A stretch of DNA of 50,647 nt. Origin: Lachnospiraceae bacterium. Its GTDB lineage: Bacteria; Bacillota; Clostridia; Lachnospirales; Lachnospiraceae. Both the position numbers and the translations under genes were made by a program. The stretch is from assembly GCA_021153185.1 (NCBI GenBank), contig JAGKTY010000016.1, positions 1-50,647 of the forward strand, read 5' to 3'. This document shows positions 4,229 through 6,880 of the stretch, in pieces (the first letter of the stretch is position 1; each line of letters opens with the position of its first letter). The notes beneath the pieces were generated by a model. That model was given only the letters and a program-made list of their open reading frames with translations. It did no database searches and was not told the DNA's origin.

Positions 4229-6766
4229 TTAATCCAAATAATCGAATAGATCTTTTTCTTTACAAGCATCTTCTATATTTATACTTTTCATAAAACCATA
4301 AACACCTTCATACTCTCTACGCAATGCAAAGTCAGAACTATTAAAAAATTCAATGATATCTTTATACACTTCTGGATTCAGCAATAAATCTTCTATCGAT
4401 ACTCTAATCAGTATTCCATCTGGTTTCGAGCTCTTGTATCTCTCTGCTTCTTCTGGTAGCATTGTATCTAATGCCGTTAATCTGAGCTCTCCATCTTCTG
4501 AAATAACATAATAATATCGTTTCTTAATATGCCCCTCATGATATGGCATTTCTTCATTCCTGATCTCAGCATGAAGACTCTTTAGATTAACAATAAACCT
4601 ATATATAAAGGAACTAGGGTTATTTTCTACACTTTCTGGCACTTCACCAATTGCATATGTAATAGTCGGATAAAGTGTTTTTAAAAATTGCCAATACCCT
4701 TTCGTAGACACCTCACCATTAGGGAACAAATCACTTAATATAGGGAAAAAAATGTATTCTTCTATATGATGCGGGATCATATCATAAAGCATCGCAAATG
4801 CCTGATCATCATAAGAGTTTTTCATGTTGTGTTCAAATATTTCGCCTATTTGACGTAACATTTTATCCTTTTGTGAAGAAAAATATAAGGCGCAAAAATA
4901 ATCCTGAAAAGAATCGTGAATAAATCTATACACCCCATTTTCTTCATACATGATACACACTTTCGTTGTTAGATCATCAATAAAATCACTTACATTTAAT
5001 TCCATGTTTTTATCAATATCTTCCTGACGGCGTTTCAATTTTGAAAAATATCTATCTATCTTTTCTTCGTCAAACTCTTTTTCTCCATCTCTGTATGTTT
5101 TTGCCGAAAACTCTGCCAGATATTCCTTCAATCTATCTACAGACAGTCCAGTACTTAATGAACGATTAAAAGCACTTTTTTTTGCATCATGCTTTTCTGC
5201 CAATGCATGAAATGCTTTACTATAAAATAAATACCTCTTCGTTGGGACATCCGCATTCTCATCATACGTCATCATCATTAAAGTCAATAATAGTGGATTA
5301 ACAATTAATGATTTATGCGTTAAATACATCCCCTTTTTCAATCTATCCTTAAAAGACTTCCGTAAGTCATCATTCTCATCTCCAAACTGAAGTTTGTCTA
5401 CGAGTTGAATTGCCTGTTCTTTAGTAAAGGGAAGGATATTTATTGTTGTAAATCTATCAAATGATGCACCAGCCGTATAAGGTCGAGACGATACAACAAA
5501 AACATTTTTATTGTATTTATCCACAAAACTCTCAGCAGCCAATTCAAATTGCTTCTCATCAGAAGAACCTATCTCATCTAAACCATCAAACAAAACTAAA
5601 CAATGCCCTTTTGATAATAAATCCATTAGGTCATCTTCTATGAGAGTTTCATCAAACACTCCAAAATGGGAAAAAACATATGCCTCTATATTACGATAGG
5701 AAGCATCATATTTCTTTAACGGAACGAAAATAGGAATCAGCCCTGTATTTTCATACTTGTTAATTGCGTCATTCATGAGATGTTGCATCATCATAGACTT
5801 TCCTATCCCTGCGGTTCCGCAAAGCATCAAAAAGCTTTGTCTCTTTAGCAAATCTTCAATTGTTACACTTTTTATTACATTTGGCTTATACCAAGATCCA
5901 TTCTTTCCTGCAACATCTACGCTTTCCTGCACATCATTACATACATAAAAATCATAAAATGCTCTTGGTTCACTCCTGTATAAATAACTTTTTGATGTAC
6001 TATATTTTCCTTTAACCCCAGAAATATATTCAGCATACCTTAGTAGATAGCTTTTATCTCTATTACCAGATGCTACTTCAATTTGAATTGACTGTTTTTT
6101 ACTTGCAAGCTTAATACCAAGAATATTATCTTTCCCTATCTCGCTTATAAATTCTGGCTTCTTATATTTCTCAGTTTTATGCCATCTCTCAAAAGTATCT
6201 CTTCCACTATCGTTCGGTATTGAATTATCAACAATATAAAACCAACTTCCTAGCATTACGGATGCAACACTATAATCAAAGTTTGCCGGTATATCTTTCT
6301 TGACAATTTTCATTCCTGATGTAGTCAAAAACAGTTCTGTATCTGGGTTGATGTTGTCATCAACATAGATAAGTTCAAGAACAGCATATATTAGCCAATC
6401 ATTCTTTCCTGGCTCAATAAATTTCGAAGCAAAACTTTCCATCGCTTTGAGCATTTCGAAGTATCTGTTCCTCATTCCATCTCTAAATGAATTGATTAAA
6501 ACATCATCTTCTACCGGAATTCCTGCTCCTGAGCTAATTTCGCATTTTTTGTATAAATTCAAATTTGTCTTAAGACTATTTCCATTAAATGAACGATATG
6601 GTTCATACATAATACCTAACAAGGTTTTCATGCATGTTTCTTCTGTGACACCTTCTATTTTCCCAATCTGCGTCTCCTGTGAATTAGTTCTTTGTCTCAT
6701 TGCCTGCACGACCAATGAAAAAAGGGTTCCTCCAGATAATCTATCAATACTGTTTCGTTTCATCAT
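4229..6766 (-). CDS. NACHT-domain STAND NTPase (bacterial NLR-like protein) with unknown N-terminal and C-terminal domains
   Basis: ORF 4229..6772 (TTG at 6772; ATG at 6766 is preceded by a GGGGG RBS). Canonical NACHT motifs: Walker A LMLCGTAGIGKS, Walker B LVLFDGLDE, sensor-1 VVSSRP, downstream FQDYFCALYF winged-helix-like motif. About 310 aa of uncharacterised sequence N-terminal to the NTPase and about 200 aa C-terminal. Stop is 17 nt upstream of the hsdR start. Confidence 0.75.
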   Translation of the reverse strand: MMKRNSIDRLSGGTLFSLVVQAMRQRTNSQETQIGKIEGVTEETCMKTLLGIMYEPYRSFNGNSLKTNLNLYKKCEISSGAGIPVEDDVLINSFRDGMRNRYFEMLKAMESFASKFIEPGKNDWLIYAVLELIYVDDNINPDTELFLTTSGMKIVKKDIPANFDYSVASVMLGSWFYIVDNSIPNDSGRDTFERWHKTEKYKKPEFISEIGKDNILGIKLASKKQSIQIEVASGNRDKSYLLRYAEYISGVKGKYSTSKSYLYRSEPRAFYDFYVCNDVQESVDVAGKNGSWYKPNVIKSVTIEDLLKRQSFLMLCGTAGIGKSMMMQHLMNDAINKYENTGLIPIFVPLKKYDASYRNIEAYVFSHFGVFDETLIEDDLMDLLSKGHCLVLFDGLDEIGSSDEKQFELAAESFVDKYNKNVFVVSSRPYTAGASFDRFTTINILPFTKEQAIQLVDKLQFGDENDDLRKSFKDRLKKGMYLTHKSLIVNPLLLTLMMMTYDENADVPTKRYLFYSKAFHALAEKHDAKKSAFNRSLSTGLSVDRLKEYLAEFSAKTYRDGEKEFDEEKIDRYFSKLKRRQEDIDKNMELNVSDFIDDLTTKVCIMYEENGVYRFIHDSFQDYFCALYFSSQKDKMLRQIGEIFEHNMKNSYDDQAFAMLYDMIPHHIEEYIFFPILSDLFPNGEVSTKGYWQFLKTLYPTITYAIGEVPESVENNPSSFIYRFIVNLKSLHAEIRNEEMPYHEGHIKKRYYYVISEDGELRLTALDTMLPEEAERYKSSKPDGILIRVSIEDLLLNPEVYKDIIEFFNSSDFALRREYEGVYGFMKSINIEDACKEKDLFDYLD

Positions 6767-6880
6767 ATCCAAATTCCCCCTTTCCTAATAATTATTAACG
6801 TAATTAACGCAATAAACAAAATTAAGATTTGACCATAAACATTCTAAACACGAAATTCAATATATCAAAAGAAAAACTTT

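What the first reader, a model, noticed from the sequence alone, without database searches (positions are those of the whole stretch)
4229..6772. NACHT-domain STAND NTPase co-operonic with a type I R-M system: candidate antiphage defence protein with uncharacterised effector and sensor domains
The translation carries the canonical NACHT signature: GTAGIGKS Walker A, LVLFDGLDE Walker B (the D-G-L-D-E form typical of NACHT rather than generic AAA+), SSRP sensor-1 and the FQDYF.ALYF helix. About 310 N-terminal and 200 C-terminal residues are unrecognised. The gene ends 17 nt before hsdR on the same strand, inside an AT-rich block. Bacterial NACHT proteins are an established antiphage family (established knowledge), but this N-terminal domain shows no motif I can place and could be a new effector. 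Co-transcription with hsdRMS would make a composite R-M/NLR defence locus.
Basis: partly seen in the sequence, partly recalled or inferred. Interest (0 to 1): 0.75.

Follow-up and report, generated by a model that had tools for sequence, protein, structure and literature searches.

The report
Prophage NACHT immune protein, new effector
This gene encodes a bacterial relative of animal NLR immune receptors, carried with a type I restriction system on a prophage cassette; its front domain belongs to a large undescribed family that looks like a cell-killing module.

Summary
Window 4229-6766 (-) encodes an intact 845-aa NACHT STAND NTPase. It sits 17 nt upstream of an EcoAI-family type I hsdR-hsdM-hsdS, in a 35% GC block.

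Two corrections. The C-terminus is not unrecognised: it is Pfam SNaCT14, the short sensor-type domain of clade-14 bacterial NACHT proteins. The gene pair is not chromosomal. It is a 7.2-kb cargo cassette in the defence slot of a Heliusvirales-like prophage. In relatives the same slot holds type II R-M, BREX or nothing, so the link to R-M is co-inheritance, not shown functional coupling.

The N-terminal ~225 residues ("N-dom") are new:
- No hit in Pfam, NCBIfam or PADLOC.
- A confident all-helical model has no fold match in PDB or BFVD.
- The family has at least 1254 clusters at 50% identity.

N-dom is also found fused to NB-ARC-like or other sensor domains. Most often it is a ~300-aa phage protein whose N/Q/G-rich tail matches the N-terminus of the next gene, the signature of amyloid-signalling effector/receptor pairs.

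Most likely the protein is an autonomous abortive-infection NLR: SNaCT14 senses, NACHT oligomerises, N-dom kills. N-dom's biochemical activity is unknown.

Verdict: new variant of a known kind; interest 0.6.

The parts
4229..6766 (-). NACHT gene, 845 aa plus stop: N-dom + NACHT + SNaCT14
   Evidence: ORF and translation. Pfam NACHT and SNaCT14. 395 homologues. dN/dS 0.04-0.12 against close relatives.
6092..6766 (-). N-dom, residues 1-225: new all-helical N-terminal domain, putative effector
6707..6742 (-). Helix 1 of N-dom (RLSGGTLFSLVV, residues 9-20), the most conserved segment of the domain
   Evidence: Invariant L10, G12, G13. Highest 12-residue conservation window among 140 sequences.
4802..6040 (-). 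Pre-NACHT segment, NACHT NTPase and helical/winged-helix part (residues 243-655)
   Evidence: Pfam PF05729. Shared by all 120 listed homologues. Foldseek matches to NLRC4, NOD2 and NLRP3.
5795..5818 (-). Walker A, GTAGIGKS (residues 317-324)
   Evidence: Sequence. G320, G322 and K323 invariant in 45 sequences.
5573..5599 (-). Walker B, LVLFDGLDE (residues 390-398): the D[GAS]hDE signature of NACHT
   Evidence: Sequence. D394, G395, D397 and E398 invariant. Signature as defined by Kibby et al..
5480..5491 (-). Sensor 1, SSRP (residues 426-429)
   Evidence: Sequence. R428 and P429 invariant.
4880..4924 (-). Winged-helix motif FIHDSFQDYFCALYF (residues 615-629)
   Evidence: Sequence. The profile aligns this stretch to NLRP3.
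4238..4786 (-). SNaCT14 domain (residues 661-843), putative sensor
   Evidence: PF22720, 115.5 bits, profile positions 1-185 of 186. Fastest-evolving part: 44% identity against 72-79% for NACHT in P0002 and P0003. dN/dS 0.12 against 0.03-0.04.
6841..6868 (-). Promoter-like site, TTGATA-16-TAGAAT, about 75 nt upstream of the start
   Evidence: 10 of 12 consensus match. A consensus match only.
4212..4228 (-). 17-nt junction to hsdR, containing the AGGAGG ribosome-binding site; no room for a terminator
   Evidence: Sequence. No terminator-like site found here. The gap is 14-17 nt in relatives.
1824..4211 (-). hsdR, EcoAI-family (type IB) restriction subunit, 795 aa
   Evidence: NF046051 at 1009 bits against cut-off 550. 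PADLOC REase_I, E 8e-222.
287..1807 (-). hsdM, 506 aa
   Evidence: PF02384, E 7e-67. PADLOC MTase_I.
1..282 (-). 5' part of hsdS (94 codons), cut by the window edge
   Evidence: Translation. About 96% identical to the start of the 386-aa gene that follows hsdM in L174.
1..7246 (.). AT-rich cargo cassette: promoter region + NACHT + hsdRMS
   Evidence: 90% nucleotide identity to L174-L176 over exactly this span and nothing beyond it. GC 0.35 against 0.42-0.45.
7222..7956 (+). Divergent 244-aa gene with a sigma-70 region-4-like HTH and a Cys-rich motif; the conserved neighbour of the NACHT gene
   Evidence: Weak TIGR02937 hit. jackhmmer finds it divergently upstream of the NACHT homologue in 43 loci.
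8015..10508 (-). Prophage-backbone genes: SymE-like (10158-10508), ParA (9232-10017), ParB-N (8301-9248), small ORF (8015-8359)
   Evidence: Pfam and PHROG hits. Same order as in L005 and L174, with 44-70% amino-acid identity.

Best explanation
The gene encodes a prophage-borne, single-protein bacterial NLR. Its architecture is that of clade-14 bNACHT proteins: effector, NACHT, then a short SNaCT sensor.

Proposed mechanism:
1. In the lysogen the protein is made from the operon that runs divergently from the phage early/replication genes.
2. The fast-evolving C-terminal SNaCT14 domain binds a protein of an infecting phage.
3. This releases autoinhibition, and the NACHT module binds NTP and oligomerises.
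4. The clustered N-terminal N-dom executes abortive infection (growth arrest or death). It most likely acts non-enzymatically on the cell envelope, in the manner of Bell/HeLo-type execution domains.

The type IB R-M system downstream is a first-line defence carried on the same 7.2-kb cassette. It is probably co-transcribed but works independently.

**Shown:** domain architecture and intact motifs; purifying selection on all three domains; cassette structure and prophage context; modularity of N-dom.

**Inferred:** antiphage role, ligand sensing, oligomerisation and the killing mechanism.
For: **NACHT membership.** Pfam hit above cut-off, intact Walker A, DGLDE Walker B, sensor 1 and winged-helix motif. 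The best PDB matches of the full-length model are NLRC4, NOD2 and NLRP3.

**Sensor.** SNaCT14 matches at E 4.8e-33. It diverges about twice as fast as NACHT: 44% against 72-79% identity, dN/dS 0.12 against 0.03-0.04. Kibby et al. describe the same pattern for clade 14. In bNACHT11 the C-terminal sensor domain binds phage proteins directly and triggers oligomerisation (10.1101/2024.12.17.629029).

**N-dom as a modular effector.**
- It starts at the N-terminus of the protein in the best 150 profile matches.
- There is one copy per locus.
- dN/dS is 0.06-0.09.
- Among 139 representatives it is joined to NACHT-SNaCT14 (27), NB-ARC-like or other P-loop modules (4), or a 150-aa 'X' domain (11). At least 61 are standalone with an N/Q/G-rich tail.
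- Two more representatives, read by eye from the sequences, appear to carry an FHA-like domain.
- In 53 non-redundant viral loci that tail matches the N-terminus of the adjacent X gene. Mean Smith-Waterman score is 55.5, against 23.8 +/- 5.1 for shuffled sequences, 34.5 for cross-locus pairs and 20.9 for an internal control region.
- This is the genomic signature of amyloid-signalling effector/receptor pairs and of their 'all-in-one' NLR fusions (Dyrka et al. 10.1101/2020.01.06.895854; Bab/Agp 10.1101/2024.11.07.622273).
- The most conserved part is a hydrophobic first helix with invariant glycines. Babybell shows the same feature.

**Prophage context.** Near-identical relatives show SymE-ParA-ParB-small ORF-sigma-like(-)-NACHT-hsdRMS-PolA(-)-Enc34(-)-DUF2800(-). 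The last three are Heliusvirales marker genes (PMC11283538). The complete prophage Javan105 has the same layout.

**Autonomy.** Three loci have no cargo after the NACHT gene. Published bNACHTs are single-gene systems.
Against: - No experiment shows defence, oligomerisation or toxicity.
- PADLOC has no model that hits the protein.
- N-dom has no predicted membrane segment: the maximum 19-residue hydropathy is 0.98. It has no recognisable catalytic motif and no fold match, so the killing mechanism rests on analogy alone.
- The window's subclade replaces two near-invariant N-dom residues: Cys11 to Ser (Cys in 93%) and His176 to Phe (His in 86%). Its activity may therefore differ from the rest of the family.
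- The amyloid-type motif pairing is seen in relatives, not in the window protein itself.
- Placement in clade 14 was inferred from architecture, not from a tree.
- The gene occupies the slot next to the divergent early promoter, where temperate phages often keep lysogeny regulators.
Confidence: 0.65

Rival explanations
1. Guard model. The NACHT protein monitors the methylation-based defence encoded downstream. It fires when a phage anti-restriction protein (an Ocr- or ArdA-like DNA mimic, or an Stp-like peptide) disables that system, as PrrC does for EcoprrI.
For: - 38 of 52 species-level loci carry an MTase-based system (type I, II or III R-M, BREX1, BREX3-like) directly after the NACHT homologue.
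- In the window lineage NACHT and hsdRMS travel as one cassette with similar dS.
- NACHT evolves 3-4 times faster than HsdR and HsdM.
- In phages with the split cassette, an RloC/PrrC-like AAA_13 ATPase sits in the same operon.
Against: - R-M systems dominate any defence hotspot, so the enrichment may be trivial.
- The same NACHT subfamilies occur with unrelated cargo types, with non-methylation cargo (dynamin-like GTPases, DUF4062), or with none.
- No published bNACHT trigger is an anti-restriction protein. 'Ocr' does not occur in Kibby et al., and the bNACHT11 activators named in the section read here are T2 gp57 and gp9.
Confidence: 0.1
2. Adaptor model. N-dom is not the killer. It is a recruitment domain (EAD/Death-like logic) that brings in a separate host or phage effector once the NACHT oligomerises.
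For: - It is all-helical, with no catalytic motif and no membrane segment.
- The invariant polar residues sit at helix ends, judged from residue positions against the model's secondary structure, and so look structural.
Against: - Only one N-dom-bearing gene per locus in 63 genome loci and 78 viral loci, so there is no cis partner for a homotypic interaction.
- No Pfam hit at all at E<=10, so it matches no domain family that Pfam models.
- In the two-gene cassettes N-dom sits on the effector side, with the C-terminal motif.
Confidence: 0.12
3. Phage-lifecycle regulator. The protein serves the prophage as a STAND-type switch, for example a sensor that controls lysogeny maintenance, induction or superinfection immunity through DNA or RNA polymerase binding. 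It is not an abortive-infection device.
For: - It is the first gene of the operon that runs divergently from the early/replication genes, beside a sigma-like regulator. This is the classical repressor slot, conserved in 43 loci.
- N-dom proteins occupy this slot in the Heliusvirales-like loci examined.
- Kibby et al. list transcription-regulatory domains among the N-terminal domains of bNACHT proteins.
Against: - No HTH or other DNA-binding signature in N-dom.
- Amyloid-type motif pairing and fusion to many different sensor modules are typical of conflict effectors.
- The gene lies in an AT-rich cargo cassette exchanged between backbones, not in the conserved backbone.
- The C-terminus evolves fast.
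Confidence: 0.08
4. Decayed or inactive remnant carried along with the R-M genes.
For: Substitutions at two near-invariant N-dom positions.
Against: - The 845-codon frame is intact and all NTPase motifs are present.
- dN/dS is 0.03-0.12 in every domain.
- One variant from the same 90%-identity cluster is seen on 74 contigs.
Confidence: 0.03

Closest known systems
Clade-14 bacterial NACHT proteins (bNACHT01, bNACHT11; Kibby et al. 2022/2023; Robbins et al. 10.1101/2024.12.17.629029)
   Same: - Central NACHT with the D[GAS]hDE Walker B signature.
- A short, non-repeat C-terminal SNaCT domain that evolves faster than the NACHT.
- Single-polypeptide organisation.
- Location on a mobile element.
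   Different: - bNACHT11 has only a ~45-residue N-terminal extension with an MDPIT motif. This protein has a 225-residue helical domain of a different, undescribed family.
- The SNaCT family is number 14.
- The host is a gut Clostridia prophage, not an enterobacterium.
- No activity has been tested.
Amyloid-signalling effector/receptor pairs: Bell-BASS/NLR (Dyrka et al. 2020), Bab/Agp BASS11 (Ibarlosa et al. 2024), fungal HET-S/NWD2
   Same: - In relatives, N-dom carries a C-terminal N/Q/G-rich motif that matches the N-terminus of the adjacent gene product and co-varies with it.
- N-dom also occurs in 'all-in-one' form at the N-terminus of NLR-type NTPases, as in the window.
- The most conserved part is a hydrophobic first helix with invariant glycine.
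- Bab/Agp is also located in a prophage.
   Different: - N-dom is 2-3 times larger than Bell or Babybell, and no sequence or fold match was found.
- The usual partner is a 215-aa protein with an unknown 150-aa domain, not an NLR or a TPR-PIN protein.
- Amyloid formation is untested.
- The hosts are unicellular Bacillota, where the 2020 survey found Bell domains and NLR-like architectures (NB-ARC or NACHT with TPR/WD repeats) rare or absent.
PrrC/EcoprrI and RloC: abortive-infection proteins embedded in type I R-M loci
   Same: An Abi-type NTPase is encoded in one operon with hsdR, hsdM and hsdS. An RloC-like AAA_13 gene occupies the same operon in phages with the split N-dom cassette.
   Different: - No homology: NACHT, not an ABC-type ATPase with an anticodon nuclease.
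- There is no evidence that the NACHT protein is held in check by, or senses inhibition of, the R-M enzyme.
AVAST / Avs STAND NTPases
   Same: Tripartite STAND architecture of effector, NTPase and sensor. They sense phage proteins directly and act by abortive infection.
   Different: The NTPase clade differs (NACHT), there is no repeat-type sensor, the N-terminal domain is not a recognisable nuclease or protease, and no PADLOC Avs model hits.

Membership tests
NACHT clade of STAND NTPases | Walker A GxxxxGK[ST] | tested here: met
   GTAGIGKS, residues 317-324. G320, G322 and K323 are invariant in 45 homologues.
NACHT clade of STAND NTPases | Walker B with the D[GAS]hDE signature (Koonin & Aravind; quoted in Kibby et al.) | tested here: met
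   LVLFDGLDE, residues 390-398. D394, G395, D397 and E398 are invariant.
NACHT clade of STAND NTPases | Profile match above the curated threshold | tested here: met
   PF05729 at 37.0 bits against a cut-off of 26.7, residues 313-458.
NACHT clade of STAND NTPases | NLR-type fold of the NTPase plus helical/winged-helix domains | tested here: met
   The top 49 Foldseek PDB hits are all NLRs (NLRC4, NOD2, NLRP3, NAIP5, NLRP2/7/9/14 and oocyte NLRP complexes), E down to 2e-12, about 490 aligned columns. The profile aligns FxHxSFQ-YF to NLRP3.
NACHT clade of STAND NTPases | Nucleotide-dependent oligomerisation | not testable with these tools
   Needs purified protein.
bNACHT clade 14 (NACHT + SNaCT) | Short non-repeat C-terminal SNaCT domain | tested here: met
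   PF22720 SNaCT14 at 115.5 bits against a cut-off of 27, profile positions 1-185 of 186.
bNACHT clade 14 (NACHT + SNaCT) | SNaCT diversifies faster than the NACHT module | tested here: met
   44% against 72-79% identity to P0002 and P0003. dN/dS 0.12 against 0.03-0.04.
bNACHT clade 14 (NACHT + SNaCT) | Phylogenetic placement inside clade 14 | not tested
   No reference clade sequences were available. Placement rests on architecture only.
bNACHT clade 14 (NACHT + SNaCT) | Short N-terminal MDPIT-type extension as effector (bNACHT11) | tested here: not met
   The N-terminus is MMKRNSIDRLSGG..., followed by a 225-residue domain. The effector differs.
bNACHT clade 14 (NACHT + SNaCT) | Protection against phage | not testable with these tools
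   Needs a phage-challenge experiment.
Catalogued defence systems (PADLOC-DB 2.0) | Match to a system model | tested here: not met
   0 families for the NACHT protein. NCBIfam gives only a 23.8-bit partial match to EruA, whose cut-off is 1000.
Type I R-M, EcoAI family (the neighbours) | HsdR, HsdM and HsdS genes with family-level matches | tested here: met
   HsdR: NF046051 at 1009 bits against 550. HsdM: PF02384 at E 7e-67. HsdS: the first 94 codons only in the window; the full 386-aa gene is present in L001 and L174.
Operon with hsdRMS | Co-transcription | tested here: inconclusive
   Gaps of 17, 16 and 4 nt. No terminator-like site lies in the junctions. One 10/12 promoter-like site lies upstream of the NACHT gene. 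Promoter-like matches inside the genes are at chance level: 24 found against 33 +/- 6 expected. RNA data are needed.
Amyloid-signalling effector domains (Bell/HeLo logic) | Effector carries a C-terminal motif matching the N-terminus of the adjacent gene product | tested here: met
   Met in relatives, not in the window protein. In 53 viral loci the mean score is 55.5, against 23.8 shuffled and 34.5 cross-locus. Examples are Javan105_0053/0054 and NatCom_35866.
Amyloid-signalling effector domains (Bell/HeLo logic) | The same domain also occurs as the N-terminus of NLR-type proteins ('all-in-one') | tested here: met
   The window protein, 27 NACHT fusions and 4 NB-ARC-like or other P-loop fusions among 139 representatives.
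Amyloid-signalling effector domains (Bell/HeLo logic) | The motif forms amyloid and templates the partner | not testable with these tools
   Needs fibril, ThT or prion assays.
Amyloid-signalling effector domains (Bell/HeLo logic) | Homology of the globular domain to Bell, HeLo or Babybell | tested here: inconclusive
EAD/Death-like adaptor domains | A second copy on a neighbouring effector protein (homotypic pairing) | tested here: not met
   One N-dom gene per locus in 63 genome loci and 78 viral loci. The two apparent doubles are split genes.

The most novel reading that the evidence does not exclude
N-dom is a previously undescribed cell-death execution domain of temperate gut phages (Ca. 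Heliusvirales-like). It is driven interchangeably by NLR oligomerisation, when fused as in this window, or by prion-like amyloid templating from an adjacent sensor protein. The second mode is the split cassette: N-dom with a tail motif, then a partner with the matching motif plus the X domain. If so, amyloid-controlled immune cell death extends to unicellular Bacillota and to one of the most widespread phage lineages of the human gut.
Probability: 0.4. Interest if true: 0.8.

Novelty: new variant of a known kind. Interest (0 to 1): 0.6.

Why it matters
- **Effector repertoire.** Bacterial NLR-related proteins are established antiphage receptors, but their effectors are only partly catalogued. 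Here a confidently folded 225-residue domain has no family, fold or PADLOC match. It heads at least 1254 protein clusters. It is wired to NACHT, NB-ARC-like and other sensor modules, or to an adjacent partner through a co-varying N/Q/G-rich motif.
- **Testable candidates.** This gives a concrete candidate for a new death effector. It also gives a candidate for amyloid-type signalling in gut Firmicutes prophages, taxa in which Bell domains and NLR-like architectures were reported as rare or absent.
- **Defence slot.** The defence slot of Heliusvirales-like prophages pairs an Abi-type N-dom device with exchangeable R-M or BREX cargo. This is useful for predicting phage-host range in the gut.
- **What is ordinary.** The NACHT and R-M parts themselves are ordinary.

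Tried and rejected
**Searches that found nothing or could not run**
- phmmer of the protein against PDB sequences gave nothing. The N-dom profile hit only a designed repeat protein.
- The N-dom alignment A1 was too divergent for a viral pattern scan. A tighter alignment, A3, worked.

**Leads followed and dropped**
- HEPN lead from the weak Las1 and KNTase hits: rejected, because there is no conserved Rx4-6H motif.
- Membrane-segment prediction by hydropathy: none found.
- hhalign of the X partner against the NACHT-SNaCT14 alignment: no relation, probability 0.3%.
- EAD-type adaptor: rejected, one copy per locus.
- Repeats around 6700-12300, looked at for attachment sites: only chance-level matches.

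**Limits**
Only 'Clostridiales' can be inferred.
- Model coordinates are not returned by the tools. I could not check whether helix 1 is buried or whether the invariant residues cluster.

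
Full report
**1. The observation**

The minus-strand ORF 4229..6772 is real. The probable start is ATG 6766, behind GGAAAGGGGG, giving 845 residues. The 94%-identical metagenomic relative P0001 starts at the same place.

The quoted motifs are all present:
- Walker A GTAGIGKS, residues 317-324
- Walker B LVLFDGLDE, residues 390-398. This is the D[GAS]hDE form that Kibby et al. give as the NACHT signature.
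- Sensor 1 SSRP, residues 426-429
- FIHDSFQDYFCALYF, residues 615-629

These residues are invariant in an alignment of 45 full-length homologues. Pfam NACHT scores above its gathering threshold, 37.0 against 26.7 bits. A full-length AlphaFold model has pLDDT 82 and pTM 0.58. Its best PDB matches are NLRC4, NOD2, NLRP3 and NAIP5, with E from 1e-12 to 1e-8. The NACHT assignment is therefore secure.

Downstream on the same strand:
- After 17 nt containing AGGAGG comes an EcoAI-family (type IB) HsdR. NF046051 scores 1009 bits against a cut-off of 550.
- HsdM follows (PF02384, E 7e-67).
- The first 94 codons of HsdS then run off the window.

GC is 0.35 for 1-6772 and 0.45 for the rest of the window.

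**2.

[quoted passage not shown] SNaCT domains define the clade-14 bacterial NACHT proteins of Kibby et al. Those authors noted that SNaCT diversifies faster than the NACHT module.

The same holds here:
- Against the 66%-identical relatives P0002 and P0003, NACHT is 72-79% identical, N-dom 60-65% and SNaCT14 44%.
- Against closer relatives, dN/dS is 0.03-0.04 for NACHT, 0.06-0.09 for N-dom and 0.12 for SNaCT14.

All three domains are under purifying selection, so the gene is functional. In bNACHT11 the C-terminal sensor domain binds several unrelated phage proteins and triggers oligomerisation (10.1101/2024.12.17.629029). By analogy SNaCT14 is the sensor. This is inference.

**3. The N-terminal domain is new**

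Only residues ~1-225 form the unknown domain, here called N-dom. Residues 243-305 are a pre-NACHT segment present in every homologue, including those with other N-termini.

N-dom has no match in any of the libraries searched:
- Pfam, even at E<=10
- NCBIfam, PADLOC or PHROGs

A profile search of 1.84 billion representative proteins finds 1254 members, 664 of them at E<=1e-30.

Other properties of the domain:
- The most conserved stretch is the first helix, RLSGGTLFSLVV, with invariant L10, G12 and G13.
- There is no predicted membrane segment.
- The window's subclade carries Ser where 93% of members have Cys (residue 11) and Phe where 86% have His (residue 176). This is a caveat for any mechanism that relies on those residues.

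**4. Evidence that N-dom is an effector module**

Among 139 representatives, N-dom appears in these arrangements:

| Arrangement | Count |
|---|---|
| Fused to NACHT-SNaCT14 | 27 |
| Fused to NB-ARC-like or other P-loop modules | 4 |
| Fused directly to a ~150-residue 'X' domain | 11 |
| Standalone, mostly ~300 residues (a few ~430-465), with an N/Q/G-rich C-terminal motif | at least 61 |
| Other C-terminal extensions or truncated | about 36 |

Two of the last group, P0170 and P0217, appear by eye to carry an FHA-like domain.

In annotated phages the standalone protein is followed by a 224-229-residue protein. Examples are Streptococcus phage Javan105 and the Ca. Heliusvirales phage NatCom_35866. 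The N-terminus of the downstream protein repeats the tail motif of the N-dom protein:
- Javan105: FNQSGSGVNIGQATNVII against FEQSGQGTNIGLAQNVHN
- NatCom_35866: QQNGDGNVVMPNYGTITINF against RQDGNENVMVPNYGTVNITV

I tested this in 53 non-redundant IMG/VR loci. The query was the last 45 residues of the N-dom protein, scored by Smith-Waterman:

| Comparison | Mean score |
|---|---|
| First 70 residues of the adjacent gene, same locus | 55.5 (minimum 35) |
| Shuffled partner | 23.8 +/- 5.1 |
| Partner from another locus | 34.5 |
| Internal region of the same partner | 20.9 |

The motif therefore co-varies within each gene pair. The direct N-dom-X fusions are a Rosetta-stone confirmation that the two proteins work together.

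This combination is the signature described for fungal HET-S/NWD2, bacterial Bell-BASS/NLR pairs and the E. coli Bab/Agp antiphage system. It has three parts:
- an effector with a C-terminal motif;
- a matching motif at the N-terminus of the neighbour;
- the same effector domain also fused 'all-in-one' to NLR N-termini.

In Babybell the most conserved element is likewise a hydrophobic first helix with an essential glycine. I take this as a lead to a membrane- or envelope-directed, non-enzymatic killing mechanism, not as proof.

Only one N-dom gene occurs per locus. This argues against an EAD-type homotypic adaptor.

**5. Genomic context: prophage cargo, not a chromosomal operon**

The wider window is chromosomal Clostridia DNA. 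It holds PcrA, a RumA-type methyltransferase, the Firmicute-type FBPase, riboswitches and Clostridiales-1 RNA.

In the NACHT orientation the order is: RumA-type gene, SymE-like, ParA, ParB-N, small ORF, a divergent sigma-like/HTH gene (7222-7956), NACHT, hsdR, hsdM, hsdS.

Near-identical relatives on longer contigs continue with DNA polymerase A, an Enc34-type ssDNA-binding protein and a DUF2800 exonuclease on the opposite strand. These are marker genes of the temperate siphovirus order Ca. Heliusvirales (PMC11283538). The complete prophage Javan105 has the same layout, with terminase, capsid, tail and lysis genes.

The divergent sigma-like gene accompanies the NACHT homologue in 43 loci.

Window 1-7246 is 90% identical at the nucleotide level to L174-L176, and nothing beyond that point is. 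The backbone proteins of the same loci are only 23-69% identical. The promoter region plus NACHT plus hsdRMS is therefore a 7.2-kb AT-rich cassette that has moved between diverged prophage backbones. Its genes share a similar synonymous divergence: dS 0.5-0.7 against L174.

**6. Is the NACHT gene functionally tied to the R-M system?**

Points for co-expression:
- Gaps of 17, 16 and 4 nt.
- No terminator-like site at the junctions.
- One 10/12 promoter-like site, 6868-6841, upstream of the NACHT gene.
- The same four-gene order at 66% NACHT identity.

Across the family the downstream gene varies. Of 52 species-level loci with at least 3 kb downstream:

| Downstream content | Loci |
|---|---|
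| Dcm + GHKL + Mrr-helicase | 5 |
| SNF2 + DUF4391 + MTase + Res | 5 |
| BREX3-like | 4 |
| BREX1 | 3 |
| Type I R-M | 3 |
| Other Dcm-containing | 3 |
| Type III-like R-M | 2 |
| Eco57I-MTase + T5orf172 + GmrSD | 1 |
| **All methyltransferase-based systems** | **38** |
| Nothing before the polymerase gene | 3 |
| Other or unknown (dynamin-like GTPases, DUF4062, ABC/glycosyltransferase genes) | 11 |

The slot is a defence hotspot whose first gene is the N-dom device and whose cargo is exchangeable. [quoted passage not shown]

I therefore read the R-M system as an independent first-line defence that is co-inherited and probably co-transcribed. A guard relationship, in which the NACHT senses anti-restriction proteins as PrrC does for EcoprrI, is not excluded. 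The predominance of methylation-based cargo and the 3-4-fold faster evolution of NACHT relative to HsdR and HsdM are compatible with it. I give it about 0.1.

**7. Mechanism proposed, with status of each step**

| Step | Status |
|---|---|
| (a) Expression in the lysogen from the divergent promoter region | Inferred from position |
| (b) SNaCT14 binds a phage protein | Inferred by analogy and from its fast evolution |
| (c) NTP-dependent oligomerisation through an intact NACHT | Motifs shown, activity inferred |
| (d) Clustering of N-dom causes abortive infection | Effector role supported by architecture and motif-pair evidence; biochemical activity unknown, membrane or envelope attack favoured by analogy with Bell/Babybell |
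| (e) The type IB R-M acts in parallel | Inferred |

**8. Comparison with known systems, and novelty**

- The NACHT-SNaCT14 core is a new member of a known kind.
- PADLOC does not call the protein. NCBIfam offers only a sub-threshold partial hit to EruA.
- The N-terminal domain is an undescribed family with no detectable fold relative. Its alternation between NLR fusion and motif-coupled two-gene cassettes in gut Firmicutes prophages is not covered by the papers I could read. The 2020 BASS survey reports Bell domains and NLR-like architectures as rare or absent in Firmicutes. The 2025 motif-detection paper mentions neither phages nor Firmicutes.
- I rate the whole as a new variant of a known kind, with interest 0.6.
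- The finding as written is largely right but ordinary in its NACHT and R-M parts. The value lies in N-dom.

**9. Limits**

- There are no experiments.
- The AlphaFold-database fold libraries were unavailable.
- Clade-14 placement was not tested by phylogeny.
- The amyloid nature of the motif is an inference from sequence pattern and genomic logic.

Noticed in passing
L092 5995-10069 (Streptococcus phage Javan105); L093 6001-10126 (phage NatCom_35866); IMG/VR loci L094-L173: A conserved four-gene phage cassette. It consists of N-dom with a tail motif (~300 aa), a partner with the matching N-terminal motif plus an unknown 150-aa domain (~215 aa, no Pfam or PADLOC hit), a small HTH (66-95 aa) and an AAA_13 ATPase of ~760 aa. 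The ATPase is annotated RloC-like and matches the PADLOC candidate PDC-S06. R-M genes usually follow.
   Followed up: partly
window 7222-7956 (+): A divergent 244-aa gene with a sigma-70 region-4-like HTH and a Cys-rich CPYTRKCKGCPNKG motif. It has only sub-threshold family hits. It is conserved next to the NACHT or N-dom gene in 43 loci and may control the early operon or the defence operon.
   Followed up: partly
window 1-7246 vs L174-L176: The NACHT-hsdRMS cassette is 90% identical in nucleotides between prophages whose backbone proteins (sigma-like, ParB, ParA) are only 23-69% identical. This shows recent cassette exchange at the hotspot. The boundary coincides with the GC step at about 7000-7250.
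   Followed up: yes
window 10158-12134 (-): The prophage end abuts a RumA-type (TRAM + U5 methyltransferase) gene, as in the unrelated locus L005. In L174-L176 the same end abuts a Tn916-type integrase/Xis element instead. The attachment site was not identified.
   Followed up: partly
window 7977-8012 (-): A strong 15-bp, GC-rich hairpin followed by a T-run lies between the convergent ends of the small ORF (8015-8359, -) and the sigma-like gene (ends 7956, +). It is probably a bidirectional terminator.
   Followed up: no
window protein residues 11 and 176 (nt 6734-6736 and 6239-6241): The window's subclade (with P0001-P0003) has Ser and Phe/Tyr where 93% and 86% of N-dom members have Cys and His. 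The domain is still under purifying selection (dN/dS 0.06-0.09).
   Followed up: partly
window 42737-42903 (-), 27657-27828 (-), 49300-49415 (-), 37897-37969 (-): Rfam hits: Clostridiales-1 sRNA (119 bits), a lysine riboswitch, an FMN riboswitch and tRNA-Thr(GGU). These are ordinary chromosomal features that place the host in Clostridia.
   Followed up: no
P0122, P0237, P0165, P0170, P0217 (representative proteins): Other N-dom architectures: N-dom + N/Q/G motif + NB-ARC-like NTPase with helical repeats, and N-dom + motif + an FHA-like domain (judged by eye). In these the amyloid-like motif sits inside a single polypeptide, between effector and sensor.
   Followed up: no
L066 15367-19210; L016 14035-16833: In some loci the slot after the NACHT gene holds a pair of dynamin-like GTPases or a 932-aa DUF4062 protein. 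These are possible non-methylation defence cargo.
   Followed up: no
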